DNA of 47,319 nucleotides, taken from the sequence record NC_042046.1. One strand, written 5' to 3'. The DNA comes from Escherichia phage C119. Of this stretch, positions 18,357 to 38,686 are shown piece by piece. Under the pieces are notes generated by a model, which had not been told where the DNA came from, did no database searches, and worked only from the letters and a program-made list of their open reading frames with translations. The translations under genes and the position numbers were made by a program. Numbering within the stretch: position 1 is the first letter of the stretch; each line of letters opens with the position of its first letter.

Positions 18357-18424
18357 AAATCCTTATATAATAAGGGTTTAGAGTATTATTATTATTATAT
18401 ATATTACTATGTATATCTTGTAAC
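18357..18424. repeat. AT-rich element copy A with (TTA)n microsatellite
   Basis: aaatccttatataataagggtttagagtattattattattatatatattactatg...; near-identical to the element at 38617-38686; lies in a divergent intergenic region. Confidence 0.8.
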
Positions 18425-18719
18425 TACTCTCTATAGCTATGTTGTTGTGTTTTACTAAAATACTATGTTTGATTTCCTGTTAAGGAGAAAATGCATATAT
18501 ATATAGATAGGGTGCAAATTTGGTGGATACATTGGTTACAAGGGTTACATTCAGCATTCATGCGGCGTACAGAGCATCAAAGCGTATTTATGTGAGTTTT
18601 ACAGCTATATACAAAATAGCACGAATAATCAAAAAGCATGATTCCTGATTGGTTATAGTGCACTCACCGGCAGCAGTGGTGCTGCTTTTGATGCAAAAAA
18701 TGCACCACAAAATCCGGGA

Positions 18720-19451
18720 GTGAAAATAATTCAACCCCAAAAACTAGAGATGATAGATATGAATCTGATTAATATTGATGAAAACGTAACCATGAGTAGC
18801 CTTGAAATTGCCGAGATCACGGGAAAGCGACATGACCACGTATTAAGGGATATAAGGGAGATGCTAAATGATGAAGAGGTATCCCCAGATTTGGGGACAC
18901 CATGCGTAGTTGATGATAATACAAAATTGTATTCTCAAAATGGAGGATGTGGCCTCAAATTTGAGGGCACCTACACTAACGAGCAAAACGGTCAGTCTTA
19001 CCCATGTTTTAACTTGCCATACCGTGAAACTATGATTTTGATGGTCGGTTATAACAGAAAGGTAGCCGCAAGAATTATTGACCGCTGGCTTCATCTTGAG
19101 CGGGAGAATAAATTACTAAAAGACCACATGAAGAAGATGGTTTCACTTGACGAGGTCAAAGTTTACAAGATCGAGGCTGCGTCAGCAAAAGCCGCGCAGC
19201 ACAGAGCTGAGGATAACTATTACGCGATTGAGAAGTTCATGTTTAAGAGCATGGATAAGTGTGGAAATCCTGCGGAACTTGATGAGCAATACTTCGATGT
19301 TAAGTTCGAGTCAAATCGTTACCATGACTCTCAAGAGGTGGTTTACAAATATCAGGCTCAGCTTGAGGTTGCCTGCGAAAAGTTAAAGGCTAAAGATGAG
19401 CTTATTGCTAATCTAGTTGATAAGAATAGCGAGATTCTTAAGTTGAAATAA
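18720..19451 (+). CDS. Rha-family phage regulatory protein / antirepressor-like
   Basis: N-terminal region contains SSLEIAEITGKRHDHVLRDIREML, a signature I recognise from Rha/antirepressor proteins; start ambiguous (GTG 18720 or ATG 18750/18759/18792). Confidence 0.6.
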   Translation: MKIIQPQKLEMIDMNLINIDENVTMSSLEIAEITGKRHDHVLRDIREMLNDEEVSPDLGTPCVVDDNTKLYSQNGGCGLKFEGTYTNEQNGQSYPCFNLPYRETMILMVGYNRKVAARIIDRWLHLERENKLLKDHMKKMVSLDEVKVYKIEAASAKAAQHRAEDNYYAIEKFMFKSMDKCGNPAELDEQYFDVKFESNRYHDSQEVVYKYQAQLEVACEKLKAKDELIANLVDKNSEILKLK

Positions 19452-19524
19452 TAGGCAAAACCAATTGGATAAAATTAGCCACGGATGGCATAGTTAAACC
19501 ACACAAACAAAGAGAGATATAGAA

Positions 19525-19719
19525 ATGGCATACTTCATTATTCAAGAGCGAAACAATCCTATTTTCGGCACATGTTACTACTGTGTAGATGGCTCAGGTT
19601 ACACAAGCAATAAATCAGAGGCGGCAAGATTTGATACAAAGCAGGAAGCTATTGAATACGCCCACGTGACAGATGAGGAGCTTGGTTCAGTAATGAAGAT
19701 TATTAAGGTGAAGGAATAA
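19525..19719 (+). CDS. Hypothetical protein (64 aa)
   Basis: ATG 19525 preceded by conserved leader acaaacaaagagagatatagaa, nearly identical to the leader at 20725-20747. Confidence 0.55.
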   Translation: MAYFIIQERNNPIFGTCYYCVDGSGYTSNKSEAARFDTKQEAIEYAHVTDEELGSVMKIIKVKE

Positions 19720-19722
19720 ATT

Positions 19723-20691
19723 ATGAGCTTCAAGGTTTACACTAGCGACGAGTTAACCAACGAAGCCTACCACAAGGAGTCAGACCATGTGTCTGGCTCT
19801 GGTCTGGCTCACATCTTCTCAACTTGCCCCGCTGCTTATAAGTTTGCAGAGCATGATGATAGCAATAAGGCTTTAAAGTTCGGTACATTAGCCCACACGG
19901 TTATTCTTGAAAACTCTGTATTCGATGCGACTTACTATCGCCAGCCAGCGCAAGAAGAGTTTGATGATCTGATTACTAGCAAGACTGCTTTGGCAACTCG
20001 GTTGAAGTCGATGGGTATTGCTGGAACATCTGGTAAGGATTATCCAGAATTAATGGAGATTCTGGCGCTGAGCGGTGAATCACTTAACGTATGGTGGGAT
20101 ATTCAGCGCTCTAACGAGGTTAAAGCGAACGGTCGCGAGATTGTATCAGCTAAAGACTTTGACACAGTACATGCGATGCGAGAGGTGCTGTGTGGCATTC
20201 CTGCATACAATGCGATAGTGAACAGTAAAACCGCTCAGCGAGAGTTATCAATCTTCGGTGAGATTAACGAGTGCGGCGTTAAGGTTCGTCTTGACCATGT
20301 CGATGTCGTTGATGATGTAGTTTATATCCGTGACTACAAGACGACTAGCGACGCATCTCCATCTGGATTTGGGAGATTGGCCTTCAAGCATGGTTACTTG
20401 CTAAAAATGGCGCTTCAGCATGATTTGTTTGTTCGCGCCTTTAATGAGAAGCGTCGAGTTGTTGTTCAGCTTCTTTGCCAGGAAAAGAAAAGCCCATTCC
20501 TTCCAATGTGCTACACGATAACAAAAGAGCACTTAAAGGTTGGTAGATTGCAATACATGAGCGCCCTATCCACATACAAGCAATGCAAGAAACTTGATAT
20601 TTGGCCTGGTTACGGATTTGGCGAAACAGAGATGGAACTGCAAGTTCCTGAGTATGAGATGAAGAAGTACGAAGATAGCACGAATAGCTAA
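19723..20691 (+). CDS. PD-(D/E)XK family recombination exonuclease (YqaJ/RecE/Cas4-like)
   Basis: Motif VRLDHVDVVDDVVYIRDYKTT (D...D/E-x-K core) and gene order exonuclease then annealing protein; stop codon lies inside the cassette motif. Confidence 0.6.
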   Translation: MSFKVYTSDELTNEAYHKESDHVSGSGLAHIFSTCPAAYKFAEHDDSNKALKFGTLAHTVILENSVFDATYYRQPAQEEFDDLITSKTALATRLKSMGIAGTSGKDYPELMEILALSGESLNVWWDIQRSNEVKANGREIVSAKDFDTVHAMREVLCGIPAYNAIVNSKTAQRELSIFGEINECGVKVRLDHVDVVDDVVYIRDYKTTSDASPSGFGRLAFKHGYLLKMALQHDLFVRAFNEKRRVVVQLLCQEKKSPFLPMCYTITKEHLKVGRLQYMSALSTYKQCKKLDIWPGYGFGETEMELQVPEYEMKKYEDSTNS

Positions 20692-20747
20692 AACGGTATT
20701 AAATTGATGGGGTATAGTTACCTCATCGACAACAAAGAGAGATAGAA

Positions 20748-21395
20748 ATGAAGACTTCAGAGAGTAACAAAACAGTTTTACAGGCACTATTTAAAGCTCG
20801 CACAGGATTTGCGAAGGCGGCAAGAGACAAGCAGAACAGTCACCTAAAGAATAGATACGCAACACTTGATTCCATGCTGGAGGCTGTAATCCCAGCACTT
20901 GATGATAACGACTTAATGATTATGCAGAGCATGTTAGAAACATCAACTACTGACAATCTTAACGTAGAGACGACTCTCTATCACGTTTCTGGCGAGTGGG
21001 TTAGCTTCTTCATGATTATGCCAATAGTTAAGAAAGACCCGCAAGGAGTAGGATCTGCATTTACATACGCTCGGCGTTACTCACTAGCGGCGGCTTTGGG
21101 AATTAGTCAGTCTGACGATGATGCGCAGATGGCAGTTAAGAGCGTCAAGGACTGGAAGCGCGATATTGAGAAGGCAGAAACTCGAGAAGAGCTTATCGAA
21201 ATCTACAAATCATGCAAATCACAAGCTGACACGGCAACGTGGGGTATAGTAGAGAAAGCGATAATAGATAAACAAGCAGAGATCAAAATGGCTTCCGCAA
21301 GTGGCTTCAACCCAGCTAAGCCAAAGGAAGTCGCTAAAAAAGTTGCAAACGCAACGAATGAAGTAGTAGAATCACAATCAATCGAGCAGTTCTAA
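20748..21395 (+). CDS. ERF-like single-strand annealing protein
   Basis: Segment NRYATLDSMLEAVIPAL...FTYARRYSLAAALGI is typical of ERF-family annealing proteins; located between exonuclease and SSB. Confidence 0.55.
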   Translation: MKTSESNKTVLQALFKARTGFAKAARDKQNSHLKNRYATLDSMLEAVIPALDDNDLMIMQSMLETSTTDNLNVETTLYHVSGEWVSFFMIMPIVKKDPQGVGSAFTYARRYSLAAALGISQSDDDAQMAVKSVKDWKRDIEKAETREELIEIYKSCKSQADTATWGIVEKAIIDKQAEIKMASASGFNPAKPKEVAKKVANATNEVVESQSIEQF

Positions 21396-21436
21396 ACTAA
21401 ACGGGGCTTCGGCCCCAAAATCAAACGAGATATGAA

Positions 21437-21931
21437 ATGAATTGGGACAAATACTTTGATATCGTGGATGGTAAGCTGGTGTGGAAGTATAGAGAAGAGA
21501 TGCGGCCACAGTGGAACGCAAGATATCAAGGAAAAGAGGCAGGAGCGATAAGGAATGGATACCTTCAGACCGAAATCAATGGGAAGTGTTATTTTTGCCA
21601 TAGAATTATGTGGGAAATGATTAACGGTCGTATACCGGATGGAATGTGCATAGACCACTTGAATCACAAGAGAGATGATAACAGGATTGAAAATCTTAGA
21701 GTTGTATCTCATCAAGATAATTGCAAGAATCAGAGCTTGCGATTGAAAAATAAATCAGGAGTATCGGGAGTTTACTGGAATAAGAAAGCAAATAAGTGGC
21801 TAGCTCAAATAAGTATAAAAGGAAAAAGAAAGCATGTTGGTTTCTTTTTATCAATATCTGACGCTGAGAATGCGATAAAACAAGCAAGAAAAGAAAATCT
21901 TTACCACGAAAATCATTGCTCTAATATTTGA
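21437..21931 (+). CDS. HNH homing endonuclease with AP2-like domain (copy 2)
   Basis: NGRIPDGMCIDHLNHKRDDNRIENLRVVSHQDNCKNQ (HNH) and SGVSGVYWNKKANKWLAQI (AP2-like); N-terminus MNWDKYFDIVDGKLVW parallels copy 3. Confidence 0.8.
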   Translation: MNWDKYFDIVDGKLVWKYREEMRPQWNARYQGKEAGAIRNGYLQTEINGKCYFCHRIMWEMINGRIPDGMCIDHLNHKRDDNRIENLRVVSHQDNCKNQSLRLKNKSGVSGVYWNKKANKWLAQISIKGKRKHVGFFLSISDAENAIKQARKENLYHENHCSNI

Positions 21932-21954
21932 AATAAACAAAAAGAGGTATCAAA

Positions 21955-22377
21955 ATGCACGTAATTACAGGTCAGATTCGTAAGGCTCCTTTCACTAAAG
22001 ATGGTCAGAACGCCAAGGGTAACTGGAAGATGTACGCTATCGAAATGAGCGAATCTTATAAAACACGAGATGGAGAGCGTAAGTATAGTAATTATCGAGC
22101 TACCTTCTTTGCTAGCGAGGCGCAAATTAGCTGGTATGACGAAGCATTTCAGGAAGGAAAAGTTATCTCTGTGAGCGGCGATTCATTAGCGGTTAATGAG
22201 CGCGAACATAATGGCAAGACATATATTACGCTTGAGTTGCAGAATCCTCGATTGATGTTTAGTCAGCGAGGAGGTGAATCAGAACAGCAGCAGCAGCGAC
22301 AACAAGCTCAACAGCAACAGAGACAGCAGCCGCAGCAACAAAGCCGATTTAGTGATGAAGATGATATTCCGTTTTAA
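21955..22377 (+). CDS. ssb: Single-stranded DNA-binding protein
   Basis: OB-fold-sized N-terminal domain, Gln-rich linker and canonical acidic C-terminal tail ...FSDEDDIPF. Confidence 0.85.
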   Translation: MHVITGQIRKAPFTKDGQNAKGNWKMYAIEMSESYKTRDGERKYSNYRATFFASEAQISWYDEAFQEGKVISVSGDSLAVNEREHNGKTYITLELQNPRLMFSQRGGESEQQQQRQQAQQQQRQQPQQQSRFSDEDDIPF

Positions 22378-22385
22378 TGCAAAAG

Positions 22386-22411
22386 ATAAAGCCCCTTTCG
22401 GGGCTTTTTTA
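22386..22411. terminator. Bidirectional terminator between ssb (+) and tailspike (-)
   Basis: aaagcccctttcggggcttt hairpin with A-tract upstream and T-tract downstream. Confidence 0.75.
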
Positions 22412-26180: not shown

Positions 26181-26654
26181 TTACTCTTTAGCTTTTCGTG
26201 CTTCTTCTCTTTCTTTCTTAACCTTTCGCCATGATTTACGCTGCGGCTTGGTTGCTAACTCAGCTTCTGTAACAACTCGAAGCATCTGACGCTTCTTGCA
26301 TCGCAGTGTTAGAGGCTTGCCGTTACCGTCGAACTGTAAATCAGGTCGGCAGAATGTAGCCCTGAACCCCTCGCCAGTTCGCTTATATCGATTATGCGCA
26401 AGCTGTGCGCCGCGAGCTGAAATCATTCCCCGCTTACACCATTCTTCTACAGCCTGGCGCGTAACCTTTAGCTGCTTAGCTAGATTGGCCTTGCTGCCGT
26501 AGAAGTCCAATACAATCTCAAGGCGCGCCCTTAATCCCGCTCTCACTTCATCCTTTAGTACATAGTAACCTGATGGACGCTTACGCGGCTTCTTGTCTTC
26601 TGTGCGAATTGTTCCGTTGTTACCATTAAGAGTACGCTTGTCAATTGAATCCAT
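26181..26654 (-). CDS. Helix-turn-helix DNA-binding protein (putative transcriptional regulator)
   Basis: HTH-like segment LAKQLKVTRQAVEEWCKRGMIS; very basic C-terminus; divergently oriented to the helicase operon. Confidence 0.55.
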   Translation of the reverse strand: MDSIDKRTLNGNNGTIRTEDKKPRKRPSGYYVLKDEVRAGLRARLEIVLDFYGSKANLAKQLKVTRQAVEEWCKRGMISARGAQLAHNRYKRTGEGFRATFCRPDLQFDGNGKPLTLRCKKRQMLRVVTEAELATKPQRKSWRKVKKEREEARKAKE

Positions 26655-26665
26655 TTTCTCACCTC

Positions 26666-26746
26666 AATAGCACTTTTTGTTAAACATTGGTTTATATGGC
26701 TGTTATTATATCGTCAATCGAACGAACATTAAAGGCATTTGATATT
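26666..26746 (+). promoter_or_regulatory. Conserved cassette copy upstream of helicase operon
   Basis: aatagcactttttgttaaa followed by tttatatgg (-10-like) and leader tcaatcgaacgaaca resembling the cassette leader. Confidence 0.5.
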
Positions 26747-28690
26747 ATGGAAAACCGATTGAAAACAATACAAAAACAGATTGAAGAATTGGGCGAAGAT
26801 AAGATTAAAGAGATTCAAACTAAATTCACCTCTTCTAACTGTATGGTTCCGTATAGCTATCAGTGTGTTATGTACAATGAGATTGCAAAGCGCATTAGTC
26901 GCTATGAGCATCCATTTATCGCAATGGCTTCAGTTTCTGCTGGTAAGACTCTGGTTTTTGGTATGGTTGCTAAGCGTTGCTCTGAGCTTGGCTTGCCTAT
27001 GCTTGTTCTTGCTCGTCAGGCAGAGCTGGTTAGCCAGAATGCTTCTGAGATTTCTGATTACGGGGTTCCTAACTCCATTTATTGCTCTGGGCTTGGAATA
27101 AAATCATCTTATTTCCCTGTGGTGGTTGGCTCTGAGGGCACAGTAGTTGGCGGGCTTAAGAAGTCACTTGGCGATTTCTGTCCTGCGGTAGTTGCTATTG
27201 ATGAGTGTCACCATATTGATGACCAGGACATAGCGGAGGCAATTGATAACAATGAGACTGCGCAACAGGCATCAGATAAGGGGCGTAGCCAGTATACGGT
27301 CATCATCCTGACTTTAATGGAGCGCTGCCGTGCTAAGTATGGCAAGAATCTTCGTATCTTTGGACTGACTGGTTCTCCTTTCCGTGGAACTACGCCAATA
27401 GTTGTTGAAAACAAAAAGGAGTTGGGATTTTGGCGTGAGACGGTCACAAATATCGATACAAACTACCTGGTAGAGTTCGGTTCCGTGGTTCCGACAAACT
27501 TTGGTGCTACTGATGGCGTTGGTTACGACCTGTCAGAGTTTGATGCATCATCTGAAGATGGTGTTCAGGATTACACTAAAGCCCAGCTTGAAGCCATGGA
27601 TAAAAAGATTCAGGCATCTGGAACAATGACAGCGGAGATAATGAAGAAAGTATGGCTTGCCGCGAAAGACAGGAATGGAGTTCTGGTAACATGCGCAGGT
27701 GAGCGCCATTGCCACGAAGCCGCAAGTTACCTTCCTGAAGGTGAAAAGTTCTGCATTATAACTGGAAAGACTGGCGAGAAGCAGCGCAAGGAGTTGCTTG
27801 ATAAGTGCTTTAGCGGGGAGATTAAATATTGCTTTCAGGTTCAGGCGCTAACCACTGGCGTAAATGTGCCTACATGGGATACAAGCGTTATTCTGCGTAA
27901 GATCGGTAGCCTTACGCTCCTGGTTCAGCTACTTGGTCGAGGAATGCGTAAGCTTAAGAAGCTCCATGAAGATAAAGGAATGGTAAAGAATGACCATTTG
28001 GTACTGGACTTCGCAGGAACGATGGACTCTATGGCATCATTGTACTTCAATCCAATTCTTGAGCAGGCTCAATATCAGCTACGAAAGAGTAATGGCAAGG
28101 AGACTAAGCAGTGTCCAGTATGCGGAACAGAGAACAGCTTCTTTGCTCGACGTTGCATGCATATTGATGAGAATAATAATCGCTGCGAATATTTCTGGGT
28201 TAGTCGCACATGTGAAGACCAGAAAGACCCACGAACCGGAAAGGTTATCGTTAAAGGCTGTGGAGTTCAGAATGACGTTGCAGCTAAGATTTGTAGGGGT
28301 TGCGATTGCACTTTGCTTGATCCAAATCTCAACTTAAGCGGCAAACATTACCGCAAGAACGACTGGTTTGATGTTGTTGACTTTAAGGTTGGGCTAACAA
28401 AGAACCAATCAGGAATCATCTACAACTACATCCTTGATGATGGCATGGGTGGGACATTCAAAGCTCATGAGGTTTTCTTTGTAGAGTCTGGCCATCGAGT
28501 ATGTAAAACGCTCTGGTTGAACAATGGAATTAAAGGTCACGTAGTCGACATGAACGCTAAGCGATATATGGCTGCATATCGCAATGCTCGCAAGATTATG
28601 GAGTATGCGCAGTACATCCATGCCCCTAAGAGGGTAACTCACCGCAAGACCGCTAAAGGTGGCGATAATATTGCTAATAAGGAGTTCTAA
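26747..28690 (+). CDS. Superfamily 2 (DEAD/DEAH-type) helicase with C-terminal Cys-rich zinc-ribbon region
   Basis: Walker A SAGKTLVFG, DEAH-like VAIDECHHID, C-terminal CPVCGT...RRCMH...CRGCDC; ATG 26747 (ORF track begins at 26687). Confidence 0.75.
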   Translation: MENRLKTIQKQIEELGEDKIKEIQTKFTSSNCMVPYSYQCVMYNEIAKRISRYEHPFIAMASVSAGKTLVFGMVAKRCSELGLPMLVLARQAELVSQNASEISDYGVPNSIYCSGLGIKSSYFPVVVGSEGTVVGGLKKSLGDFCPAVVAIDECHHIDDQDIAEAIDNNETAQQASDKGRSQYTVIILTLMERCRAKYGKNLRIFGLTGSPFRGTTPIVVENKKELGFWRETVTNIDTNYLVEFGSVVPTNFGATDGVGYDLSEFDASSEDGVQDYTKAQLEAMDKKIQASGTMTAEIMKKVWLAAKDRNGVLVTCAGERHCHEAASYLPEGEKFCIITGKTGEKQRKELLDKCFSGEIKYCFQVQALTTGVNVPTWDTSVILRKIGSLTLLVQLLGRGMRKLKKLHEDKGMVKNDHLVLDFAGTMDSMASLYFNPILEQAQYQLRKSNGKETKQCPVCGTENSFFARRCMHIDENNNRCEYFWVSRTCEDQKDPRTGKVIVKGCGVQNDVAAKICRGCDCTLLDPNLNLSGKHYRKNDWFDVVDFKVGLTKNQSGIIYNYILDDGMGGTFKAHEVFFVESGHRVCKTLWLNNGIKGHVVDMNAKRYMAAYRNARKIMEYAQYIHAPKRVTHRKTAKGGDNIANKEF

Positions 28691-29079
28691 TGGTTAAGGT
28701 TTTTCACGACAAAACAAGCACGGACAAGGCTAAAGAGGTTGTTCACCAAATAAATTCAATAGCTTGGGTTCGCCACAACCATCCAGAGATATTTGCTTTT
28801 CACGTGAAGAATGAAGGTCTCAAGTCTATCGGCACAGCAATGAAGGACAAGCAGGAGGGAGTAATTAAGGGTGTATCAGATATTCTACTGATTGGACCAA
28901 ATGGCTTTGCCGCAATAGAGCTTAAGCGAGCAATAAAATCAGATAGCAAGGTTTCAAAGGAGCAAAAGGAGTTCCTGGAAAAGGTATCAGAAACAGGAGG
29001 TTACGCAGCAATCTGTTATGGGTTTGAAATGTTTAAGTTGGCAATTACAGATTATCTATCAAATAGCACGAATTGCTAA
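28690..29079 (+). CDS. VRR-NUC domain nuclease
   Basis: Motif DILLIGPNGFAAIELKRA...KEQKEFLEKV is the PD-(D/E)XK variant typical of VRR-NUC; TAATG overlap with helicase; stop lies inside the cassette motif. Confidence 0.65.
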   Translation: MVKVFHDKTSTDKAKEVVHQINSIAWVRHNHPEIFAFHVKNEGLKSIGTAMKDKQEGVIKGVSDILLIGPNGFAAIELKRAIKSDSKVSKEQKEFLEKVSETGGYAAICYGFEMFKLAITDYLSNSTNC

Positions 29080-31790: not shown

Positions 31791-32282
31791 ATGAATTGGA
31801 ATGATTTTCTCGAATATAGAGATGGAAAGCTTTACTGGACAGATCCACACTCAACAAAATTTAAGCCAGGGGATGAGGCTGGATGTAGGCATCATAGGGG
31901 TTATCATTATATAAGGAGATATAAAACCACGATGTCAAGGCATAGGATAGTATGGACAATGTTTAATGGAGAGATACCGGAAGGCATGGAGATTGATCAC
32001 ATAGACCATGACGTTGAGAATGATCGGATTGAAAACCTAAGAATGGTTACAAGGAGGCAGAACAATCAAAACAAAAAGCTAGATGAAAGAAATACTAGCG
32101 GACATGTTGGGGTTAGTTGGAACAAGAAGGCAAACAAATGGAGAGCAATGATAGGTATAAAGGGTAATGACGGGAAGCGGAAAACGGTATATGTTTATTA
32201 TGGTGACTCTTTCGACGACGCGGTATTGGCAAGGAAGAAAGCTGAATCTGAATACTCATTTCATGAAAATCACGGAAAATAG
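31791..32282 (+). CDS. HNH homing endonuclease with AP2-like domain (copy 3)
   Basis: NGEIPEGMEIDHIDHDVENDRIENLRMVTRRQNNQNK and SGHVGVSWNKKANKWRAMI; GAGGAGG RBS; stop TAG is the TAG of a cassette motif. Confidence 0.8.
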   Translation: MNWNDFLEYRDGKLYWTDPHSTKFKPGDEAGCRHHRGYHYIRRYKTTMSRHRIVWTMFNGEIPEGMEIDHIDHDVENDRIENLRMVTRRQNNQNKKLDERNTSGHVGVSWNKKANKWRAMIGIKGNDGKRKTVYVYYGDSFDDAVLARKKAESEYSFHENHGK

Positions 32283-32915: not shown

Positions 32916-32940
32916 CTTATAAGAAACATCAACTTGAAAA

Positions 32941-32970: not shown

Positions 32971-33030
32971 TTTATGTCAAAGTTTAATATCTGGTATTAT
33001 TTAATCAAATCAACTTAAAGAGGCCGCAAC

Positions 33031-33728: not shown

Positions 33729-34114
33729 TTCTGGTAATTGCATCACTGACTGGCTGCTCTGCTATGTCAGCCATTTCTGATTTCTTACCAGCAAAGGATG
33801 GCGTCGAGGCAACGGCGCAGGTTGGCGAGTCAAACCAGAAAACTGGCGTTGGATTATCCAGCCAGACAGACAAATCTAGCTCAACAGAGAGCGATATGCG
33901 CAACTCAACTAACAGAGATGTAGATTCATCAAGCCATAAAAAGACTGCTGCTACGGGTCTCTCAGCTAACACAATAACAGCTGAAAAGATTGAAATTCAT
34001 AGCACTGAAAACTCTGGGGTTGACTCTTTAGTCTGGGGTATTCTGGCTGGATTAGTTTCAGGTTTGCTAACTTACTTCGCTTTAAGATTCGCAGGAAACA
34101 AAAAAGGAGCCTAA
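33710..34114 (+). CDS. Unimolecular spanin (u-spanin-like)
   Basis: N-terminal lipoprotein signal MRLGIVVLVIASLTGCSA plus C-terminal TM helix LVWGILAGLVSGLLTYFAL in one polypeptide, the arrangement described for T1 gp11. Confidence 0.65.
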   Translation: MRLGIVVLVIASLTGCSAMSAISDFLPAKDGVEATAQVGESNQKTGVGLSSQTDKSSSTESDMRNSTNRDVDSSSHKKTAATGLSANTITAEKIEIHSTENSGVDSLVWGILAGLVSGLLTYFALRFAGNKKGA

Positions 34115-34130
34115 TGGCTCCTTTATTTTA
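34100..34130. terminator. Bidirectional terminator between convergent spanin (+) and minus-strand operon
   Basis: aggagcctaatggctcct hairpin flanked by A-tract and T-tract. Confidence 0.7.
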
Positions 34131-34463
34131 CGCGAACAGTTGGTCGTCTGTCATTTCTTTTATGGTCATCATCTCATTGGTGTACTTATCACTCTCACCT
34201 CCGAGGCACCTAAAGCTAAAACCGAATGGTCGCTTCGTGCTTCCTTTGCTCCAGTAACTGCCATTAACTCCATCGATGTAACCTTCAGTCATGCATCTTG
34301 CCAGAAACTCCTTTGACGCAGATGATGCAAAGTAACGCGCATTAACTCCAGCTGCCTTAGCCATTCTTTCACATTCTTTGTGGCGGTAAATGAATACCGC
34401 CAGGTGCTGCCTGTTAAACTTTTCGTAGCTCTCGCAGAACTTGAACACATCAAGGATGAACAT
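34128..34463 (-). CDS. Hypothetical protein (111 aa)
   Basis: Minus-strand ORF coupled downstream of the 529-aa gene. Confidence 0.5.
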   Translation of the reverse strand: MFILDVFKFCESYEKFNRQHLAVFIYRHKECERMAKAAGVNARYFASSASKEFLARCMTEGYIDGVNGSYWSKGSTKRPFGFSFRCLGGESDKYTNEMMTIKEMTDDQLFA

Positions 34464-34467
34464 TTAA

Positions 34468-36057
34468 TTACCCCAGCAGCCGTGGATTGATATATACCTT
34501 GTCACCAATCAGGCAGGTATAGTTTTTATCATCAAGCATCGGGAGTAAGTGGTCTTTAATTTTAGCCATAACACCAGCCTGTGACTCGAAAGGTCGAACC
34601 TTACGCGCAGCTTCATAAAGTGAGCGCAAACCCACAACTCCTTTACTGTTCTTGCCTTGCTTGATAAGGATATCAATTAACTTGTTCATCTCAGCGTTAT
34701 CGCCAGCATGACCAGCTGCGTTAGCAGAAGATAAGTAAGTCTTGCTAAGTTCTTCAAACATCAATAAAGCCTCCTGCATCGTTTCCAGTCCAATCTCCCT
34801 GGACTTCTGCGGACTACCGCCATTTGGATTAAACCAGTTACGTATGGTGTGAAGAACGGCAGCAAGGCGAATAACCTGCTTATCCATTTTACCTAGTGCG
34901 CCACGGAGCATTGTGTGTGAATACTTGCCGCCATCCGCAAGGTGTGGCTCCATTTCCTGTCGAGCACGGTTAAGGTGCTTCATTGCTGAGTTACTAATAG
35001 TCAACTTCACATCTTGCTCACTCATAATTTCATGAACAAGACGGAAGTAATCAGCCTTCAACGCTCCGTCAATCGGCTCATATGTTGACTCGCCATTATC
35101 ATCGACGAAAACACGCTCACCAAGGAATGACTTTTCACGCACAAGCAAGAAACGTTCGGATACACCAATACCGCGAGCACCAGCATTCATGATTGCGACT
35201 ATTGTTTCATCCTGCGCAATTACAGAAATACACCCCATAGCAATAAAGCTCATGTTGTTCTCTGCGTTCGCACGCGCGATAGATACGTTACCAGCATCCC
35301 AGGCCTTAAGTACCAGTTCGCTGTTTGTTTTCTTTGTTCCATCACCATAGGTCATGCCAAGCAGTGAGTTGACGCTCGTCGCCTCATCCGAGATGACAGC
35401 GAAGCTACCCTGACGATGGTTAATGCGTGCCAGACCTTCAGGAGTAGTATCAGATACAGGGAATACGATGTCGCAAAGTTTCTCGAGCTTATCTTCCAGC
35501 TCCTCCTTCTCCTCAAACAAACCAGCCATCTCAGAAGGCGACTTCTCCTGCTTCATTTCTTTAGCCAGAGCCGACAGCTTGGCCATAATCTTTTTACGGT
35601 CACGCTTACGCAGATCGTTTAGTCGCTCAGTCTCTGCAATCATTGGAGCCAGAGACAGCGAGTTAATGGCGGATTTACCAGTTGATGGAGGCTGGCTGGT
35701 CACTACATACAGTGATGTTGGTTGTTGAGTTCCGTGATACTCAACCGTAAAGCGACCTAACATAGCTGCCGAGATGCAACCAAGGAAGTGCATATAAGCA
35801 GATGATTCAGGAAACTGAACAGAACGAGCAATGTTGCTTGATAGTTTGCCAACTACATCATAGTCGTTACCAAGCGAGATAACAGGATACTTGTCGCCAG
35901 TAGAATCAATCTCAACCGGAGCTTTCCAGAATGATGCGCTCTGGCGATAACCGTTCGCATTAATAGCAACACGTAAAGGAGGTAATCCATCCTGAGCGGC
36001 AACAGCCATTACTTGTTCAACAGTCAATTTGTCATCATTAAAATCAAACATTATCAT
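34468..36057 (-). CDS. Putative P-loop NTPase of unknown function (529 aa); full-length paralog of the ORF at 39457-40017
   Basis: Walker A-like VVTSQPPSTGKSA; N-terminus (MIMFDFNDDKLTVEQVMAVAAQDGLPPLRVAINANGYRQS) and C-terminus (VVGLRSLYEAARKVRPF...CLIGDKVYINP) are shared with the 186-aa ORF. Confidence 0.6.
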   Translation of the reverse strand: MIMFDFNDDKLTVEQVMAVAAQDGLPPLRVAINANGYRQSASFWKAPVEIDSTGDKYPVISLGNDYDVVGKLSSNIARSVQFPESSAYMHFLGCISAAMLGRFTVEYHGTQQPTSLYVVTSQPPSTGKSAINSLSLAPMIAETERLNDLRKRDRKKIMAKLSALAKEMKQEKSPSEMAGLFEEKEELEDKLEKLCDIVFPVSDTTPEGLARINHRQGSFAVISDEATSVNSLLGMTYGDGTKKTNSELVLKAWDAGNVSIARANAENNMSFIAMGCISVIAQDETIVAIMNAGARGIGVSERFLLVREKSFLGERVFVDDNGESTYEPIDGALKADYFRLVHEIMSEQDVKLTISNSAMKHLNRARQEMEPHLADGGKYSHTMLRGALGKMDKQVIRLAAVLHTIRNWFNPNGGSPQKSREIGLETMQEALLMFEELSKTYLSSANAAGHAGDNAEMNKLIDILIKQGKNSKGVVGLRSLYEAARKVRPFESQAGVMAKIKDHLLPMLDDKNYTCLIGDKVYINPRLLG

Positions 36058-36091
36058 CTCTCTCTAAATGCCCCCGAAGGGGCTTGATTAT

Positions 36092-36271
36092 TTACTTGAT
36101 ACGAACTTCAATCATCTGACCTTTATGAGGAAGATACAGCTTTGCGCGACCTCTAATCATTACGGTGATGATATTCTCCTTAAGGTCAACGTGAAGTACT
36201 TTGCGGAACAGTGGCCCCATTTTTACCATCATGCCAGGTTTGATGTTTTCGATAGTAGTCATGATATCCAT
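36092..36271 (-). CDS. Hypothetical protein (59 aa)
   Basis: Minus-strand ATG 36271 downstream of cassette copy (motif 36337-36355, leader 36290-36320); just below the ORF-track size cutoff. Confidence 0.5.
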   Translation of the reverse strand: MDIMTTIENIKPGMMVKMGPLFRKVLHVDLKENIITVMIRGRAKLYLPHKGQMIEVRIK

Positions 36272-36353
36272 TTTTTAGCCCTTTTAATGTATTTCGTTTC
36301 GATGAAGAGAATATATCAATTTTTGTTGTTAAGGTCTTTAGCAAAAAGTGCCA

Positions 36354-36470
36354 TTAAAGACCAACCAGACATTTGCCAACTACAACAGCGATTGCGCCCA
36401 TGAAGCCAAAGAAACCAAACTTAATTACTTGTTCCATTACCGCATCAACTGCTTTAGAGATGTTTTTCAT
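36354..36470 (-). CDS. Small membrane protein (38 aa)
   Basis: ATG 36470 with AAGGTG RBS; hydrophobic helix FGFFGFMGAIAVVVGKCLVGL; the longer ORF-track version would span a cassette motif. Confidence 0.45.
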   Translation of the reverse strand: MKNISKAVDAVMEQVIKFGFFGFMGAIAVVVGKCLVGL

Positions 36471-36555
36471 TTTGTTCACCTTAGTGTTTGTCTTCTTGAT
36501 GGAAACAAATATACCCGCCGAAGCGGGTAGTGTCATTAGCAAAAAGTGCTATTAA

Positions 36556-36750
36556 TTAAAACCTTTCGCCAGATGATAGCTTATTACTAGGCATTTTATC
36601 TATGAAAGTTTCAAGCAACCATTTTCTAGTAATGAAATCAACCACGCAAAAATAGCCTCTATCTTTGCAGTATCTGTACTTAGTGCCGTGTTGTATAGAC
36701 TTGCAATAAATTGAATCTTTTGTTATGTAAATTCTTACTGTCTCATTCAT
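36556..36750 (-). CDS. Hypothetical protein (64 aa, Cys-containing)
   Basis: ORF-track ORF in the minus-strand small-gene array. Confidence 0.5.
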   Translation of the reverse strand: MNETVRIYITKDSIYCKSIQHGTKYRYCKDRGYFCVVDFITRKWLLETFIDKMPSNKLSSGERF

Positions 36751-37100
36751 TTGTATTGGCTCTCGAATTTATAAGTTCCGCAAACAGTTGTAAATCCAAC
36801 ATCTTCAGAGCGAATCAGCGTCCATGAGTCACCATCTTCATCAAATATTTTACCAGCGTTCTGTCCAAGAGATGCGGTCATTTCTACCTGATAGCGACGA
36901 CCTTGCTTGAATGACTTTGATACTCCTGATTTATGGTTAACAAATGTGACATAAAGAGTCTTAGTCTTGATGTAACGCCCCCGCTCAGTGAGATTTTGCC
37001 ATTTACCATGAATCTTGATTTGCTCAATACCATCTTTAACGCGAGCTTTAAACAGATTGTTATCTGAGCTGATCCAGTTTTTAGTGATAGTGGTAGCCAT
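36747..37100 (-). CDS. Hypothetical protein (117 aa)
   Basis: ORF-track ORF, coupled to the downstream gene. Confidence 0.55.
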   Translation of the reverse strand: MATTITKNWISSDNNLFKARVKDGIEQIKIHGKWQNLTERGRYIKTKTLYVTFVNHKSGVSKSFKQGRRYQVEMTASLGQNAGKIFDEDGDSWTLIRSEDVGFTTVCGTYKFESQYK

Positions 37101-37125
37101 TACTATTTTCCTTTTTGGTTTGTTA

Positions 37126-37428
37126 TTAGTTAGCGTTATGACGTTCGATATAGTCGCGGATTGTTTCGCCTACGCTTTTAGCGGCACCAAAAGTGCCCTT
37201 TGCGTGGCGTGAATCGCGGTACGTCTGGAAGAATTTACGAGCGATGTTTGCGAACATTGAACCAGTCACGCGAGCATCACCGAAATTTGTTTCGATAGCG
37301 TTGCTAATGCCATCCTTGAACTCATTTTCAGTCATGAACATCTCTGCCATGCCAGCAGTCTCGAAAAGGTTAGCTAATTCATTCATGTTGTTATGGTCTT
37401 CGGCTGTAAACAGGTTCATGTTAATCAT
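37126..37428 (-). CDS. Hypothetical protein (100 aa)
   Basis: Preceded on the minus strand by cassette leader attcatctcatcgaaacgaaactaa. Confidence 0.55.
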   Translation of the reverse strand: MINMNLFTAEDHNNMNELANLFETAGMAEMFMTENEFKDGISNAIETNFGDARVTGSMFANIARKFFQTYRDSRHAKGTFGAAKSVGETIRDYIERHNAN

Positions 37429-37502
37429 CTTCGTGATTCTTTAGTTTCGTTTCGATGAGATGAATATACAATAAAAGCCCCGAAGGGCTTTAGCAATTCG
37501 TG

Positions 37503-37655
37503 CTATTTCTTTGCTGCTTTTGCAATTGCCTTCTGGACGATGTTGAAGCTCTCAATCAAATCTTCTTTGAAGTAGTCACCAACAGGCCAACCCTTACCGC
37601 TGTACTTGGCTATGGTTTCTAGATCGTAATAGTTCAAGTCAGATGGCTTTAGCAT
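37503..37655 (-). CDS. Hypothetical protein (50 aa)
   Basis: ATG 37655 adjacent to the upstream stop (TAA-ATG); stop TAG is the TAG of a minus-strand cassette motif (37489-37507). Confidence 0.4.
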   Translation of the reverse strand: MLKPSDLNYYDLETIAKYSGKGWPVGDYFKEDLIESFNIVQKAIAKAAKK

Positions 37656-37895
37656 TTACTTAACCTCATCAAAAGTTGCAATACCAGGAATAAACACTCC
37701 AACCTTCCAGCCTGTAATGGCAATCCATCCAGAATCGTGCTTGTGTGGTCGCTCAGCGCCATTAATAACCCATTCGTTCGGGATTGCCTTGCCGTTAATG
37801 ATTAGACGCTCAGCGTCGTATAAAGAGCCTTTTACGAATGGTGTTAGTATTTTCTTGTCGGTACTTGTAATGCAATTGGTGCAGCGAATTTTCAT
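37656..37895 (-). CDS. Hypothetical protein (79 aa)
   Basis: ORF-track ORF with GAGG RBS. Confidence 0.55.
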   Translation of the reverse strand: MKIRCTNCITSTDKKILTPFVKGSLYDAERLIINGKAIPNEWVINGAERPHKHDSGWIAITGWKVGVFIPGIATFDEVK

Positions 37896-37905
37896 ATCTC
37901 AATCC

Positions 37906-38085
37906 TCAAATAAATGGTAAACATTCGACGCAGCCAAGTCCATCGCAGCACAGAAATTCATCTTCTGACTGGAATTGCTTAGCCAAATCAATGTCCAGCT
38001 TTCCGCGCAGCACAAGGTTGGTGTAAACTTCGTTAAGTCCAATCAGTGCGCATTCGTGGCGCAACTCGTCTTTATCAATCTTCAT
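37906..38085 (-). CDS. Hypothetical Cys-rich small protein (59 aa)
   Basis: Minus ATG 38085; C-terminal CCDGLGCVECLPFI; overlaps neighbours. Confidence 0.4.
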   Translation of the reverse strand: MKIDKDELRHECALIGLNEVYTNLVLRGKLDIDLAKQFQSEDEFLCCDGLGCVECLPFI

Positions 38086-38269
38086 AACGCTCTACCTCGA
38101 AGTTGTATACCATTACGTTTCTATCATGCTTGTTCTTTATCACCATTGACTCAAGCTCTTCGTATACAGCCACTACATTGTAAACACCACCAGGCTCAAG
38201 GCCGTAGAATTCGTACTCTTCATCGTCAAAACCATCCGTTTTACTTAGTGCTGTTATTTTTACCTTCAT
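38075..38269 (-). CDS. Hypothetical acidic protein (64 aa)
   Basis: First gene after minus-strand cassette copy (motif 38325-38345, leader 38270-38292). Confidence 0.55.
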   Translation of the reverse strand: MKVKITALSKTDGFDDEEYEFYGLEPGGVYNVVAVYEELESMVIKNKHDRNVMVYNFEVERYED

Positions 38270-38616
38270 ATCTATCTCCTCGTTGTTGATGAGTTTACTA
38301 TAGCCTTGCCATCCCCATTTGTCTTTAGCAAAAAGTGCTATTCGTCAGATTTATGGATTGTTGCAGGCATTGCGATGATTAGCATGACTATTACACATAA
38401 AGCAATATTTCATCGATTGCAATGATTTTCTGGACTGTTGCGAATTTATCAATGATTGATGGATTGATGGAATGAAGTGAGGGTTGTATCAACTAGTTGG
38501 TTGGTTTTAGCTTTCACAAGGAGCTTTCCTTTATGTACGCGTTATGGCTTGTTCAACCGTGTAGAGAAATTGCCATATTTACGCCATCCACGCCAGTTTA
38601 CGCGCTGGTTACAAAA

Positions 38617-38686
38617 TAAATCCCTTATATAACAACCATTTAGATTTATTATTATTATTATTATTATATATGTTATTCCGTAACCA
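38617..38686. repeat. AT-rich element copy B with (TTA)7 microsatellite
   Basis: aaatcccttatataacaaccatttagatttattattattattattatatatgttattccgtaacc; direct repeat of the element at 18357-18424. Confidence 0.8.

What the first reader, a model, noticed from the sequence alone, without database searches (positions are those of the whole stretch)
18357..38686. Two direct copies of an AT-rich (TTA)n element, one at each divergent operon junction
The ~68-bp sequence at 18357-18424 and the one at 38617-38686 share aaatcc(c)ttatataa...tttaga...(tta)n...tatatat...tta.t...gtaac in the same orientation, about 20 kb apart. Each lies in a long noncoding gap (18249-18719 and 38290-38941) from which operons diverge leftward and rightward. 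The microsatellite differs in length (about 5 versus 7 TTA units), consistent with slippage. Candidate roles are a shared bidirectional promoter/UP-like element, a nucleoid-protein or phage-regulator binding site, or a replication-origin component. ORF-track entries across them (18252-18458, 38542-38733) are low-complexity artefacts.
Basis: seen in the sequence. Interest (0 to 1): 0.6.

Follow-up and report, generated by a model that had tools for sequence, protein, structure and literature searches.

The report
Paired iteron-flanked AT-rich origin-like elements
This T1-like coliphage carries two copies of a small module, phased short repeats beside the most easily melted DNA in the genome, which is kept across the T1 phage family and is the best sequence candidate so far for the family's unidentified replication origins.

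Summary
The window is a Rogunavirus (T1-like, about 99% identical to phiKP26/AHP24). Each copy is a module of about 110 bp. It has three (T/A/C)ACGC repeats spaced 9-10 bp plus GTTACA, then a 66-68 bp core of about 85% A+T holding the (TTA)n run, then an inverted GTAAC.

- The two cores are the two least stable duplex stretches of the whole window, about 4.6 SD from the mean.
- The same two-outlier pattern, at the same two intergenic positions, holds in Rtp, T1, TLS and a Klebsiella Webervirus, although the sequences differ.
- Each lineage has its own short motif on both sides of both cores. These motifs differ between phages of the same host, which suggests a phage-encoded binding protein.
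- The promoters of the flanking operons lie at the gap edges, so the element is not needed as their promoter.
- A non-Drexlerviridae phage with the same replication genes has one such element just upstream of its DUF3987 helicase operon.

Best reading: replication origin(s) built from repeats plus an unwinding element, as in SPP1 oriL/oriR (confidence about 0.5). Main rival: operator arrays controlling early transcription. All evidence is from sequence comparison; nothing has been tested experimentally.

The parts
18265..18294 (+). Copy 1, upstream phased array TACGC-GTAAC-N4-GTAAC-N5-GTATAC
   Evidence: Tandem Repeats Finder gives period 10, 2.3 copies, at 18270-18291. The block is nearly invariant between Rogunavirinae and Braunvirinae. 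Coordinates.
18316..18351 (+). Copy 1, repeat array: TATACGC (18316), TTACGC (18326), TACGC (18337) and GTTACA (18346), with start-to-start spacing of 9, 10 and 9-10 bp
   Evidence: Conserved in all relatives aligned.
18352..18419 (.). Copy 1, AT-rich core (85% A+T). It holds ATAAATCCTTATATAA (18355-18370) and (TAT)5 (18384-18398)
   Evidence: Second least stable 50-bp stretch of the window (dG -47.0, against a mean of -67.4 with sd 4.4) and the least stable 80-bp stretch. Also.
18420..18424 (+). Copy 1, GTAAC, inverted with respect to GTTAC at 18346 and 74 bp from it
   Evidence: The spacing is 72-76 bp in all copies that have GTAAC.
18505..18549 (+). Copy 1, right-hand block: AGATAGGGTGCAAATTTGGTGG, then phased GGATACA (18525), GTTACA (18535) and GTTACA (18544)
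   Evidence: Shared 8-mer in the same order as in gap 2. GTTACA is enriched around both cores: 7 of 35 genome copies lie in 882 bp, p = 6e-6. Coordinates.
38578..38613 (+). Copy 2, repeat array: TTTACGC (38578), CACGC (38589), TTTACGC (38597) and GTTACA (38608)
   Evidence: The spacing is the same as in copy 1.
38614..38679 (.). Copy 2, AT-rich core (85% A+T). It holds ATAAATCCCTTATATAA (38616-38632), an IHF-like TAACAACCATTTA (38630-38642) and (TTA)7.3 (38646-38667)
   Evidence: Least stable 50-bp stretch of the window (dG -46.5). Also.
38680..38684 (+). Copy 2, GTAAC, inverted with respect to GTTAC at 38608 and 72 bp from it
38698..38772 (+). Copy 2, right-hand blocks: GATATT three times, phased 9 and 10 bp (38698, 38707, 38717), and AGATAGGGATGCAAGCGGGGTGG (38750-38772)
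18196..18261 (-). Context, not part of the element: leftward promoter of the 21-nt direct-repeat type (AATAGCACGATTTGCTAAAG ... TATAGTTAC) at the left edge of gap 1
   Evidence: Repeat families D6, D7 and D13. The repeat consensus aaATAGCACnnnTTGnTAAAA is published for TLS (PMC11447400).
18612..18677 (+). Context: rightward promoter of the same direct-repeat type at the right edge of gap 1
   Evidence: Repeat family D3.
38279..38344 (-). Context: leftward promoter of the direct-repeat type at the left edge of gap 2
   Evidence: Repeat families D6, D7 and D13. AAGACA-17-TATAGT was found by the promoter scan.
38345..38480 (.). Context: conserved block found only in gap 2, with GATTGTTGC, TTGCAATGAT and AGCAATATT motifs. 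It is the probable packaging-start (pac) region
   Evidence: Conserved between Rogunavirinae and Braunvirinae. Its motifs are absent from gap 1. The records of T1 (terminal repeat annotated 1..2800), Rtp and ESCO41 start inside the equivalent block.
38884..38911 (+). Context: sigma-70-like promoter TTGCGA-N16-TAAGAT for the rightward operon of gap 2
   Evidence: Read from the sequence. Rtp has TTGATA-N16-TAATAT at the equivalent place. This is a prediction only.

Best explanation
The two copies are paralogous cis-acting modules that most likely serve as the phage's replication origin(s).

**Proposed mechanism**
- A phage-encoded DNA-binding protein occupies the helically phased short repeats and the inverted GTTAC...GTAAC pair, which sit about seven helical turns apart.
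- The 66-68 bp AT-rich core between them, which includes the (TTA)n run, is the unwinding element where the duplex opens.
- The phage's own replication proteins are then loaded there. These are a P4-alpha-type primase, a DUF3987 MCM/Orc-like AAA+ helicase with a C-terminal winged helix, and an SF2 helicase.
- Negative supercoiling from the transcription that diverges on either side would help opening.
- The second copy either fires as a second origin or acts as an auxiliary site. Precedents are P4 crr (an enhancer) and SPP1 oriR (a bound barrier that triggers the switch to recombination-dependent concatemer synthesis). Copy 1 lies directly upstream of the recE-erf-ssb operon.

**What is shown and what is inferred**
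- Shown: the anatomy, the extreme instability, conservation across the family, lineage-specific motifs at both loci, and separation from the flanking promoters.
- Inferred: protein binding, its identity, unwinding, and initiation of replication.
For: 1. Repeat arrays of at least three units with 9-10 bp phasing occur only at the two copies.
2. The two cores are the two least stable 50-bp stretches of the window: -46.5 and -47.0, against a mean of -67.4 +/- 4.4 and a third-ranked value of -53.7.
3. The same two-outlier pattern occurs at the same two intergenic positions in four other genomes.
   - Rtp: -46.2 and -46.8.
   - T1: -44.0 and -44.5.
   - Webervirus mtp10: -45.1 and -45.3.
   - TLS: -45.6 and -46.5.
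   - The property is kept although the sequences are not. P4 shows no such outliers.
4. Each lineage has its own motif enriched at both loci, typically on both sides of the core.
   - Window and T1: GTTACA/TGTAACA. mtp10: ATCTTAC, 12 of 18 genome copies. TLS: TGTTCAC, 4 of 8. Rtp: also CCGCGGA, 6 of 6.
   - T1, TLS and the relatives of the window all infect E. coli, so a host protein would not explain different motifs.
5. The GTTACA-to-GTAAC distance stays at 72-76 bp while (TTA)n varies from 4 to 7 units.
6. The block 18265-18427 is the best conserved part of gap 1 between two subfamilies, better than the flanking promoters and genes.
7. The flanking operons have their own promoters at the gap edges. 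TLS keeps copy 1 between co-directional genes.
8. Salmonella phage STGO-35-1 lies outside Drexlerviridae but has the same DUF3987, primase, SF2-helicase and exoVIII genes.
   - It has one outlier AT-rich core, containing TAA/AAT runs.
   - That core is flanked by 6 of the 7 genome copies of CGTGGGG/CCCCACG.
   - It lies in the gap just upstream of the operon that holds the DUF3987 helicase.
9. The phage has its own replication proteins and no DnaA boxes at the elements.
   - The primase is homologous to the N-terminus of P4 alpha (E = 1e-13).
   - The DUF3987 model has pLDDT 89. Its C-terminal secondary-structure order reads as a winged helix, and its best structural matches are MCM subunits and Cdc6/Orc1, though with low TM-scores of about 0.33.
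   - No DnaA-box match falls in either core.
10. The origin of T1-like phages is reported as not found (PMC7718038; PMC11447400).
11. There are precedents.
    - SPP1 has two origins of similar organisation, direct repeats plus an AT-rich unwinding element, both bound by gp38 (PMC6316719).
    - P4 ori and crr share the same repeats.
Against: - There is no experimental evidence of initiation, unwinding or protein binding at either copy.
- Both copies lie in the main early regulatory regions. Arrays of operators for a phage regulator would give the same lineage-specific, two-locus motif pattern, as with lambda OL/OR.
- AT-rich intergenic DNA is common in phages and also marks strong early promoters.
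- Relatives' annotations label part of copy 1 a 'promoter', although by prediction only and with a 14-bp spacer.
- The identity of 'block A' between the two copies of one genome is broken in Shigella phage Sd1, so concerted evolution is not strict.
- No clean co-variation was found between motif class and the recognition helices of the candidate binding proteins.
- The motif classes are heterogeneous. TACGC/GCGTA changes orientation between lineages.
- GC skew follows transcription and says nothing about origins.
- Copy 2 lies within about 200-250 bp of the mapped or assumed packaging end, so a packaging role for that copy cannot be excluded.
Confidence: 0.5

Rival explanations
1. Early-transcription control regions. 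The phased repeats and inverted motifs are operators for a phage-encoded regulator, for example the conserved Cro-like HTH protein at 26181-26654. That regulator would switch the early operons leaving both gaps on or off. The AT-rich core would be an RNA-polymerase entry or UP-like region, or a cluster of weak early promoters. The two copies would then be analogous to lambda OL and OR.
For: - Both copies lie in the two long regulatory gaps upstream of early and DNA-metabolism operons.
- Lineage-specific motifs at two loci are what operators of a phage regulator would look like.
- The cores contain sigma-70-like matches: TTTAGA-17-TATATT at 18377-18405 and TTTAGA-17-TATTAT at 38639-38667.
- A 34-codon ORF with a ribosome-binding site follows copy 1.
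- Software-predicted 'promoter' features overlap the element in AHP24, AHP42, AKS96 and ETEP102.
- A conserved Cro-like HTH protein is encoded.
Against: - The promoter-like matches are 9 of 12, lie in low-complexity DNA, and are not more frequent than in shuffles in gap 1.
- The -35-like hexamer is not conserved in Braunvirinae.
- The annotated promoter has a 14-bp spacer.
- The flanking operons already have promoters at the gap edges, 150-300 bp from the core.
- TLS keeps copy 1 where nothing diverges.
- A 66-130 bp block about 5 SD less stable than the genome mean is far more than a UP element needs.
- The property conserved across genera is instability, not hexamer positions.
Confidence: 0.25
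2. Packaging or recombination site. The element would be an accessory site for terminase or IHF at the packaging start (pac). Alternatively it would be a preferred break or recombination site that seeds recombination-dependent replication by the RecE/Erf system.
For: - Copy 2 lies about 150-250 bp from where the T1, Rtp and TLS records start. T1 annotates a terminal repeat at 1..2800, and TLS pac was placed by restriction mapping (PMC11447400).
- There is an IHF consensus match in the Braunvirinae cores (TATCAACCTTTTA), a 1-mismatch site in copy 2, and an exact site at 38487-38499.
- Copy 1 lies directly upstream of recE-erf-ssb.
Against: - Copy 1 is 20 kb from the packaging start.
- Only one submolar pac fragment is reported for TLS (PMC11447400).
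- A separate block found only in gap 2 (38345-38480) coincides with the record starts, and its motifs are absent from gap 1.
- IHF-like matches are not enriched in the window.
- STGO-35-1 has its single element next to the helicase operon, about 3 kb from the terminase large-subunit gene.
Confidence: 0.08
3. No specific function. The copies would be AT-rich intergenic filler with a slippage-prone microsatellite, duplicated once and carried along.
For: - The (TTA)n length varies between copies and between relatives.
- Low-complexity AT-rich DNA is common between phage operons.
Against: - The element is better conserved than the neighbouring genes across two subfamilies.
- The architecture recurs in five further genera with different sequences.
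- The spacing is fixed despite variable microsatellite length.
- The repeat arrays are statistically unexpected.
Confidence: 0.04

Closest known systems
Bacillus phage SPP1 oriL / oriR
   Same: - SPP1 is a virulent siphophage that packages by the headful from a pac site.
- It has two separated loci of similar organisation: direct repeats plus an AT-rich unwinding element.
- AT-rich islands are the strongest compositional bias of its genome.
- Replication is followed by a recombination-dependent switch that uses a 5'-3' exonuclease, a single-strand annealing protein and SSB.
- All of this is from PMC6316719. The T1-like phages encode the analogous exoVIII, Erf and SSB next to copy 1.
   Different: - There is no sequence or protein homology. 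SPP1 uses gp38, a gp39 loader and a DnaB-type gp40. This phage has a P4-type primase, a DUF3987 AAA+ helicase and an SF2 helicase.
- SPP1 oriL lies inside gene 38, whereas both copies here are intergenic.
- Binding and initiation are demonstrated for SPP1 and not here.
Satellite phage P4 ori / crr with the alpha protein
   Same: - P4 has two cis loci several kb apart that share the same short repeat in both orientations, spaced about 10-11 bp. This is annotated in NC_001609 and was read here.
- The window's primase is homologous to the N-terminus of alpha (E = 1e-13).
- The TLS motif TGTTCAC matches 7 of the 8 bases of the P4 repeat TGTTCACC.
   Different: - The window's motif is GTTACA, not TGTTCACC.
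- The helicase is DUF3987, with no detectable homology to the D5-type helicase and origin-binding part of alpha (hhalign probability 0.3%).
- P4 ori and crr are not stability outliers, whereas here the AT-rich core is the dominant feature.
Repeat-plus-unwinding-element origins in general (lambda ori, iteron plasmids)
   Same: Phased direct repeats lie next to an AT-rich region of low stability.
   Different: - There are no DnaA boxes in the elements.
- The repeats are only 5-7 bp, rather than 17-22 bp.
- An inverted motif pair brackets the AT-rich core, which is more like the origin layout of viruses whose initiator is itself the helicase. This comparison rests on my own knowledge and was not tested.
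- The element is present in two copies.
21-nt direct repeats of TLS and T1-like phages (aaATAGCACnnnTTGnTAAAA)
   Same: They are also repeated intergenic elements of the same genomes. One sits at the left edge of each gap and one at the right edge of gap 1 (PMC11447400).
   Different: - The sequence is different and there are about 15-20 copies.
- They always point in the direction of transcription, about 76 nt upstream of start codons.
- They are promoter-associated. The AT-rich element is separate from them and lies between them.

Membership tests
Replication origin built from repeats plus an unwinding element | Array of three or more short direct repeats with helical phasing | tested here: met
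   Spacing of 9 and 10 bp at 18318/18327/18337 and at 38580/38589/38599. These are the only such arrays in the window, and one arose in 200 shuffles.
Replication origin built from repeats plus an unwinding element | Adjacent AT-rich region of exceptionally low duplex stability | tested here: met
   The two least stable 50-bp stretches of the window. The same holds in Rtp, T1, mtp10 and TLS.
Replication origin built from repeats plus an unwinding element | Repeats bound by an initiator encoded by the same replicon | not testable with these tools
   The only support is indirect. Motifs are lineage-specific and shared by both loci. A candidate AAA+ helicase with a winged helix exists.
Replication origin built from repeats plus an unwinding element | Replication starts there | not testable with these tools
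   This needs marker-frequency sequencing, 2D gels or plasmid-amplification assays.
Replication origin built from repeats plus an unwinding element | Host DnaA boxes (in DnaA-dependent origins) | tested here: not met
   No TTWTNCACA match (up to 1 mismatch) in gap 1 or in either core. The window holds 66 matches against 110 expected.
P4 ori/crr system | Same repeat at two separate cis loci | tested here: met
   The P4 annotation and sequence were read.
P4 ori/crr system | Type 1 repeat TGTTCACC | tested here: not met
   The window has (T/A/C)ACGC and GTTACA. Only TLS has TGTTCAC.
P4 ori/crr system | Alpha-type fused protein combining primase, helicase and origin binding | tested here: not met
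   Only the primase part is homologous. The DUF3987 helicase is unrelated to the D5-type part of alpha (Pfam).
Sigma-70 promoter / UP element (bidirectional) | -35 and -10 hexamers with 16-18 bp spacing, conserved in relatives | tested here: inconclusive
   Only 9-of-12 matches in low-complexity DNA. Gap 1 has 2 sites against 3.8 +/- 2.0 in shuffles; gap 2 has 7 against 3.0 +/- 1.6. TTTAGA is not conserved in Braunvirinae. The annotated promoter has a 14-bp spacer.
Sigma-70 promoter / UP element (bidirectional) | Lies at a point of divergent transcription and is needed for the flanking operons | tested here: not met
   Separate promoters sit at the gap edges. The TLS equivalent of copy 1 lies between co-directional genes. 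A third divergence at 26655-26686 lacks the element.
pac site (start of headful packaging) | Coincides with the start of the packaging series | tested here: not met
   Copy 1 is 20 kb away. Record starts and the T1 terminal repeat fall in a separate block found only in gap 2. Copy 2 is only about 150-250 bp away, so an accessory role is not excluded.
Rfam RNA families | Match to a curated covariance model | tested here: not met
   No hit with E <= 1 in either gap.

The most novel reading that the evidence does not exclude
The two elements are the long-sought replication origins of the T1 phage family, or an origin plus an auxiliary cis site.

- A lineage-specific phage initiator, possibly the DUF3987 MCM/Orc-like helicase with its terminal winged helix, binds inverted and phased short motifs about seven helical turns apart.
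- It opens a microsatellite-containing unwinding element.
- The same design accompanies this replication gene set outside Drexlerviridae.
- Initiator specificity has diverged between phages of one host: GTTACA, TGTTCAC, ATCTTAC and CGTGGGG.
Probability: 0.45. Interest if true: 0.7.

Novelty: new member of a known kind. Interest (0 to 1): 0.55.

Why it matters
T1 is one of the classical T phages, and its relatives (Drexlerviridae) are abundant, used in therapy, and notorious laboratory contaminants. Two genome papers read here state that no origin of replication could be found (PMC7718038, PMC11447400).

A short, conserved and precisely delimited pair of candidate sites turns that open question into simple experiments: marker-frequency sequencing, plasmid amplification on infection, and footprinting.

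If confirmed, it would:
- define cis elements needed for engineering or rebooting these phages;
- show how initiator and origin specificity diverges among phages sharing one host;
- give a second example, besides SPP1, of a two-origin virulent phage that packages from a pac site.

If instead the sites are operators, they would define the early regulatory switch of the family, which is also unknown.

Tried and rejected
- **Rfam on both gaps:** no hits, so a structured RNA is not supported.
- **DnaA-box scan:** nothing in gap 1 or in either core, and the pattern is depleted in the window.
- **IHF consensus:** exact in the Braunvirinae cores and at 38487, one mismatch in copy 2, but not enriched overall. 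Left as a weak lead.
- **Sigma-70 and terminator scans:** uninformative inside the cores.
- **GC skew:** it mirrors the direction of transcription only.
- **Search for the element in 5,426 E. coli genomes and 72,556 plasmids:** no match. There is no sign of satellites or plasmids borrowing it.
- **IMG/VR contig L006:**
  - It has GTTACA repeats plus an AT-rich (TTA)n block next to a Toprim primase(-helicase) gene.
  - Its protein has no similarity to the window's primase or helicase.
  - It was selected by my own search pattern, so it is kept only as an aside.
- **Concerted evolution of 'block A':** it holds in the window and in four Braunvirinae genomes but fails in Sd1. Downgraded.
- **Co-variation between motif class and recognition helices** of the Cro-like HTH protein and the DUF3987 winged helix: no clean pattern, and the TLS helicase extraction failed.
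- **PDB sequence searches** with the DUF3987 and HTH proteins: nothing.
- **Homology of the P4 alpha helicase and origin-binding part to DUF3987:** none.
- **The search for related loci in IMG/VR:** few loci returned.
- **Literature:**
  - I could not find any description of this element, nor transcription-start or origin mapping for T1-like phages, in the library.
  - The Rtp genome paper is not held, and the T1 genome paper (Roberts et al. 2004) was not looked up and did not surface in the searches. Prior description there cannot be excluded.

Full report
**Identity of the window.** Both gaps match T1-like phages of the genus Rogunavirus (Drexlerviridae) at about 99% identity, namely phiKP26, AHP24 and AHS24. 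The 47.3-kb window is about the length of a whole genome of this group; phiKP26 is 47,285 bp.
- Gap 1 (18249-18719) lies between a leftward lipoprotein gene and a rightward Rha-type regulator, which is followed by exoVIII (recE), erf and ssb.
- Gap 2 (about 38270-38941) lies between a leftward operon of small early genes, which further on includes the DUF3987 helicase, and a rightward operon of small genes that leads to the terminase.

**Checking the observation.**
- A local alignment of the two gaps pairs 18337-18424 with 38599-38684. The score is 63, against 21.5 +/- 2.3 in shuffles.
- After removing the period-3 runs the score is still 43, against 22.0 +/- 2.6 (maximum 32) in dinucleotide-preserving shuffles.
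- Tandem Repeats Finder gives a perfect (TTA)7.3 at 38646-38667 and an imperfect period-3 run at 18384-18410.
- The ORFs that cross the copies are low-complexity and lie on opposite strands.

**Anatomy of one unit.** Immediately to the left of each copy is an array of (T/A/C)ACGC repeats with start-to-start spacing of 9 and 10 bp, ending in GTTACA (18316-18351 and 38578-38613).
- Such arrays of three or more occur nowhere else in the window and arose once in 200 shuffles.
- The GTTACA is matched by an inverted GTAAC 72-74 bp to the right.
- Between them lies a core of 85% A+T.
- Further co-linear similarity follows on the right: AGATAGGG.TGCAA...GGTGG at 18505 and 38750.
- More GTTACA/TGTAAC copies surround both cores. 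Seven of the 35 genome copies lie in 882 bp, p = 6e-6.

**Physical property.** With nearest-neighbour energies, the two cores are the two least stable 50-bp stretches of the whole window. They score -46.5 and -47.0 kcal/mol, against a mean of -67.4 with sd 4.4; the next stretch scores -53.7.

**Conservation in close relatives.**
- Both copies are present at the same two positions in Rogunavirinae and in Braunvirinae. In Rtp they lie at about 160-290 and about 28040-28165.
- In gap 1 the block 18265-18427 is the best conserved part between the two subfamilies, better than the neighbouring promoters and genes.
- The number of TTA units ranges from 4 to 7 between copies and phages, yet the GTTACA-to-GTAAC distance stays at 72-76 bp, about seven helical turns.
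- The microsatellite therefore looks like adjustable filler inside a unit of constrained length, not the functional core itself.

**Conservation across the family.** Sequence similarity is lost in more distant genera, but the architecture persists.

| Phage (group) | Two least stable 50-bp stretches | Third-ranked |
|---|---|---|
| Window (Rogunavirus) | -46.5, -47.0 | -53.7 |
| Rtp (Braunvirinae) | -46.2, -46.8 | -52.5 |
| T1 (Tunavirinae) | -44.0, -44.5 | -52.3 |
| TLS (Tempevirinae) | -45.6, -46.5 | -53.9 |
| mtp10 (Webervirus) | -45.1, -45.3 | -55.8 |

- In every one of these genomes the two outliers lie at the equivalents of gap 1 and gap 2. P4, used as a control, has no such outliers.
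- Each lineage has its own short motif enriched at both loci, usually on both sides of the core.
  - T1: TGTAACA/GTTACA.
  - mtp10: ATCTTAC/GTAAGAT, 12 of 18 genome copies.
  - TLS: TGTTCAC/GTGAACA, 4 of 8.
  - Rtp: additionally CCGCGGA, 6 of 6.
- T1, TLS and the relatives of the window all grow on E. coli, so the differing motifs argue for a phage-encoded binding protein rather than a host protein. This is inference.
- In TLS the equivalent of gap 1 is not a divergent junction: the tail gene and recE are on the same strand. The block is kept all the same.

**Relation to promoters and to the packaging site.**
- The 21-nt direct repeats described for TLS (aaATAGCACnnnTTGnTAAAA; PMC11447400) are abundant in the window.
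- With their downstream TATAGT they sit at the left edge of both gaps and at the right edge of gap 1. Gap 2 has a sigma-70-like promoter at its right edge.
- The element lies between these promoters, 80-270 bp from each of them, measured from the inner edge of the promoter to the nearest edge of the module.
- Sigma-70-like matches inside the cores are weak. They are no more frequent than in shuffles in gap 1, and they are not conserved.
- Gap 2 has an extra conserved block (38345-38480) with motifs that are absent from gap 1. The records of T1 (terminal repeat annotated 1..2800), Rtp and ESCO41 begin inside its equivalent, so this block is the likely packaging-start region.
- The function shared by both copies is therefore unlikely to be packaging.

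**Link to the replication genes.**
- The phage encodes:
  - a primase homologous to the N-terminal part of P4 alpha (E = 1e-13);
  - a Cro-like HTH protein and an SF2 helicase;
  - a DUF3987 protein.
- The DUF3987 protein gave a confident structural model (pLDDT 89).
  - Its C-terminal secondary-structure order (H-S-H-H-S-S) reads as a winged helix; I did not run a separate fold search on that domain.
  - Its best structural matches are MCM subunits and Cdc6/Orc1, with Foldseek probability 1.0 but TM-scores of only about 0.33.
- No DnaA boxes lie in either core.
- Salmonella phage STGO-35-1 (Caminolopintovirus) is not in Drexlerviridae but has the same DUF3987, primase, SF2-helicase and exoVIII set.
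  - It has a single outlier AT-rich core with TAA/AAT runs (-46.8 and -50.1, next -54.5).
  - The core is bracketed by 6 of the 7 genome copies of CGTGGGG/CCCCACG.
  - It lies in the gap just upstream of the operon that contains the DUF3987 helicase.
- The design thus travels with this replication module.

**Interpretation.**
- The anatomy is that of a replication origin: phased repeats, an inverted pair at fixed spacing, an extreme unwinding-prone core, lineage-specific motifs, and association with the replication module.
- Two-locus precedents exist.
  - SPP1 oriL and oriR have a similar organisation of direct repeats plus an AT-rich unwinding element, and both are bound by gp38. oriR is proposed to stall the fork and trigger the switch to concatemer synthesis (PMC6316719).
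  - P4 ori and crr share TGTTCACC repeats. Notably, the TLS motif is the same heptamer.
- Two genome papers state that no origin could be found in T1-like phages.
- I therefore rate 'origin(s) of replication' as the best explanation, at about 0.5.
- The main rival, at about 0.25, is that the motif arrays are operators of an early-gene regulator. That would also be lineage-specific and present at both early regulatory regions.
- A packaging or recombination role (about 0.08) and no function (about 0.04) are less likely.
- All of this is comparative sequence evidence. Binding, unwinding and initiation are inferred, not shown.

**Caveats.**
- Identity of 'block A' between the two copies of a genome holds in most genomes but not in Sd1, which is mosaic.
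- The TACGC/GCGTA-class motif changes orientation between lineages.
- No clear co-variation with the recognition helices of candidate proteins was found.
- The older T1 and Rtp genome papers could not be read or were not looked up, so prior mention of these AT-rich regions there cannot be excluded.

Noticed in passing
window: 3729, 11079, 18241(-), 18612, 20671, 26666, 29059, 29744, 30430, 32275, 36334(-), 36532(-), 37488(-), 38321(-), 39997, 41113: About 16 copies of the promoter-associated 21-nt repeat AAATAGCAC-N3-TTGCTAAA, which contains the palindrome TAGCA-N5-TGCTA. It is followed about 22 nt later by TATAGTTAC and by a conserved leader, CATCGAAACGA. The repeat itself is published for TLS (PMC11447400). 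The conserved leader box and the palindrome suggest a dimeric regulator and a shared 5' UTR signal.
   Followed up: partly
window 38345-38480: Conserved block found only in gap 2, with GATTGTTGC, TTGCAATGAT and AGCAATATT motifs and a GATTGATG x2.8 tandem. The T1, Rtp and ESCO41 records start inside its equivalent. It is a candidate packaging-start / small-terminase binding region of the family.
   Followed up: partly
window 18505-18526 and 38750-38772: A second block shared by the two gaps, in the same order: AGATAGGG(A)TGCAA...GGTGG, 70-85 bp to the right of each copy. In gap 1 it overlaps a 34-codon ORF (18491-18595) with the ribosome-binding site AAGGAG, annotated as kp_41 in phiKP26.
   Followed up: no
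window 1246-2691 (repeats at 1576-2237): A 481-aa ORF with long runs of 9-bp-period GGTCC/GGCCC repeats, which read as Gly-X-Y collagen-like repeats. It lies in the head/late region.
   Followed up: no
window 4007-4079, 21598-21670, 31940-32012: Three paralogous 73-nt stretches (66-78% identical). They probably belong to multiple HNH-type endonuclease genes, since relatives annotate several HNH endonucleases at comparable places.
   Followed up: no
L006 1400-1680 (IMGVR_UViG_3300009405_000494): An unrelated 4.3-kb viral contig with many GGTTACA/TGTAAC copies on both sides of an AT-rich (TTA)n block. The region lies just downstream of an 841-aa Zn-ribbon and Toprim primase(-helicase) gene. That protein has no similarity to the window's proteins.
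   Followed up: partly
L051 2900-3230 (Salmonella phage STGO-35-1, record about 44260-44560): A single AT-rich core that is a stability outlier, bracketed by 6 of the 7 genome copies of CGTGGGG/CCCCACG. It lies immediately upstream of the operon encoding the DUF3987 helicase. It looks like the same kind of element in another phage genus.
   Followed up: yes
L038 2050-2230 (Shigella phage Sd1, gap 2): Sd1 combines a Rogunavirus-type copy 1 with a Braunvirinae-type copy 2, which has GATATACA in place of GTTACA. This is evidence of modular exchange of these intergenic elements.
   Followed up: partly
L049 400-435 and 28755-28775 / 28995-29012 (phage TLS): The repeats flanking the TLS cores (GTGAACA/TGTTCAC) are the same heptamer as the P4 alpha-protein repeat TGTTCACC. 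The TLS and P4 primases share the Zn_Ribbon_Prim domain (PF08273).
   Followed up: partly
window 38698-38722: Three GATATT hexamers phased 9 and 10 bp apart, just to the right of copy 2. They have no counterpart in gap 1.
   Followed up: no
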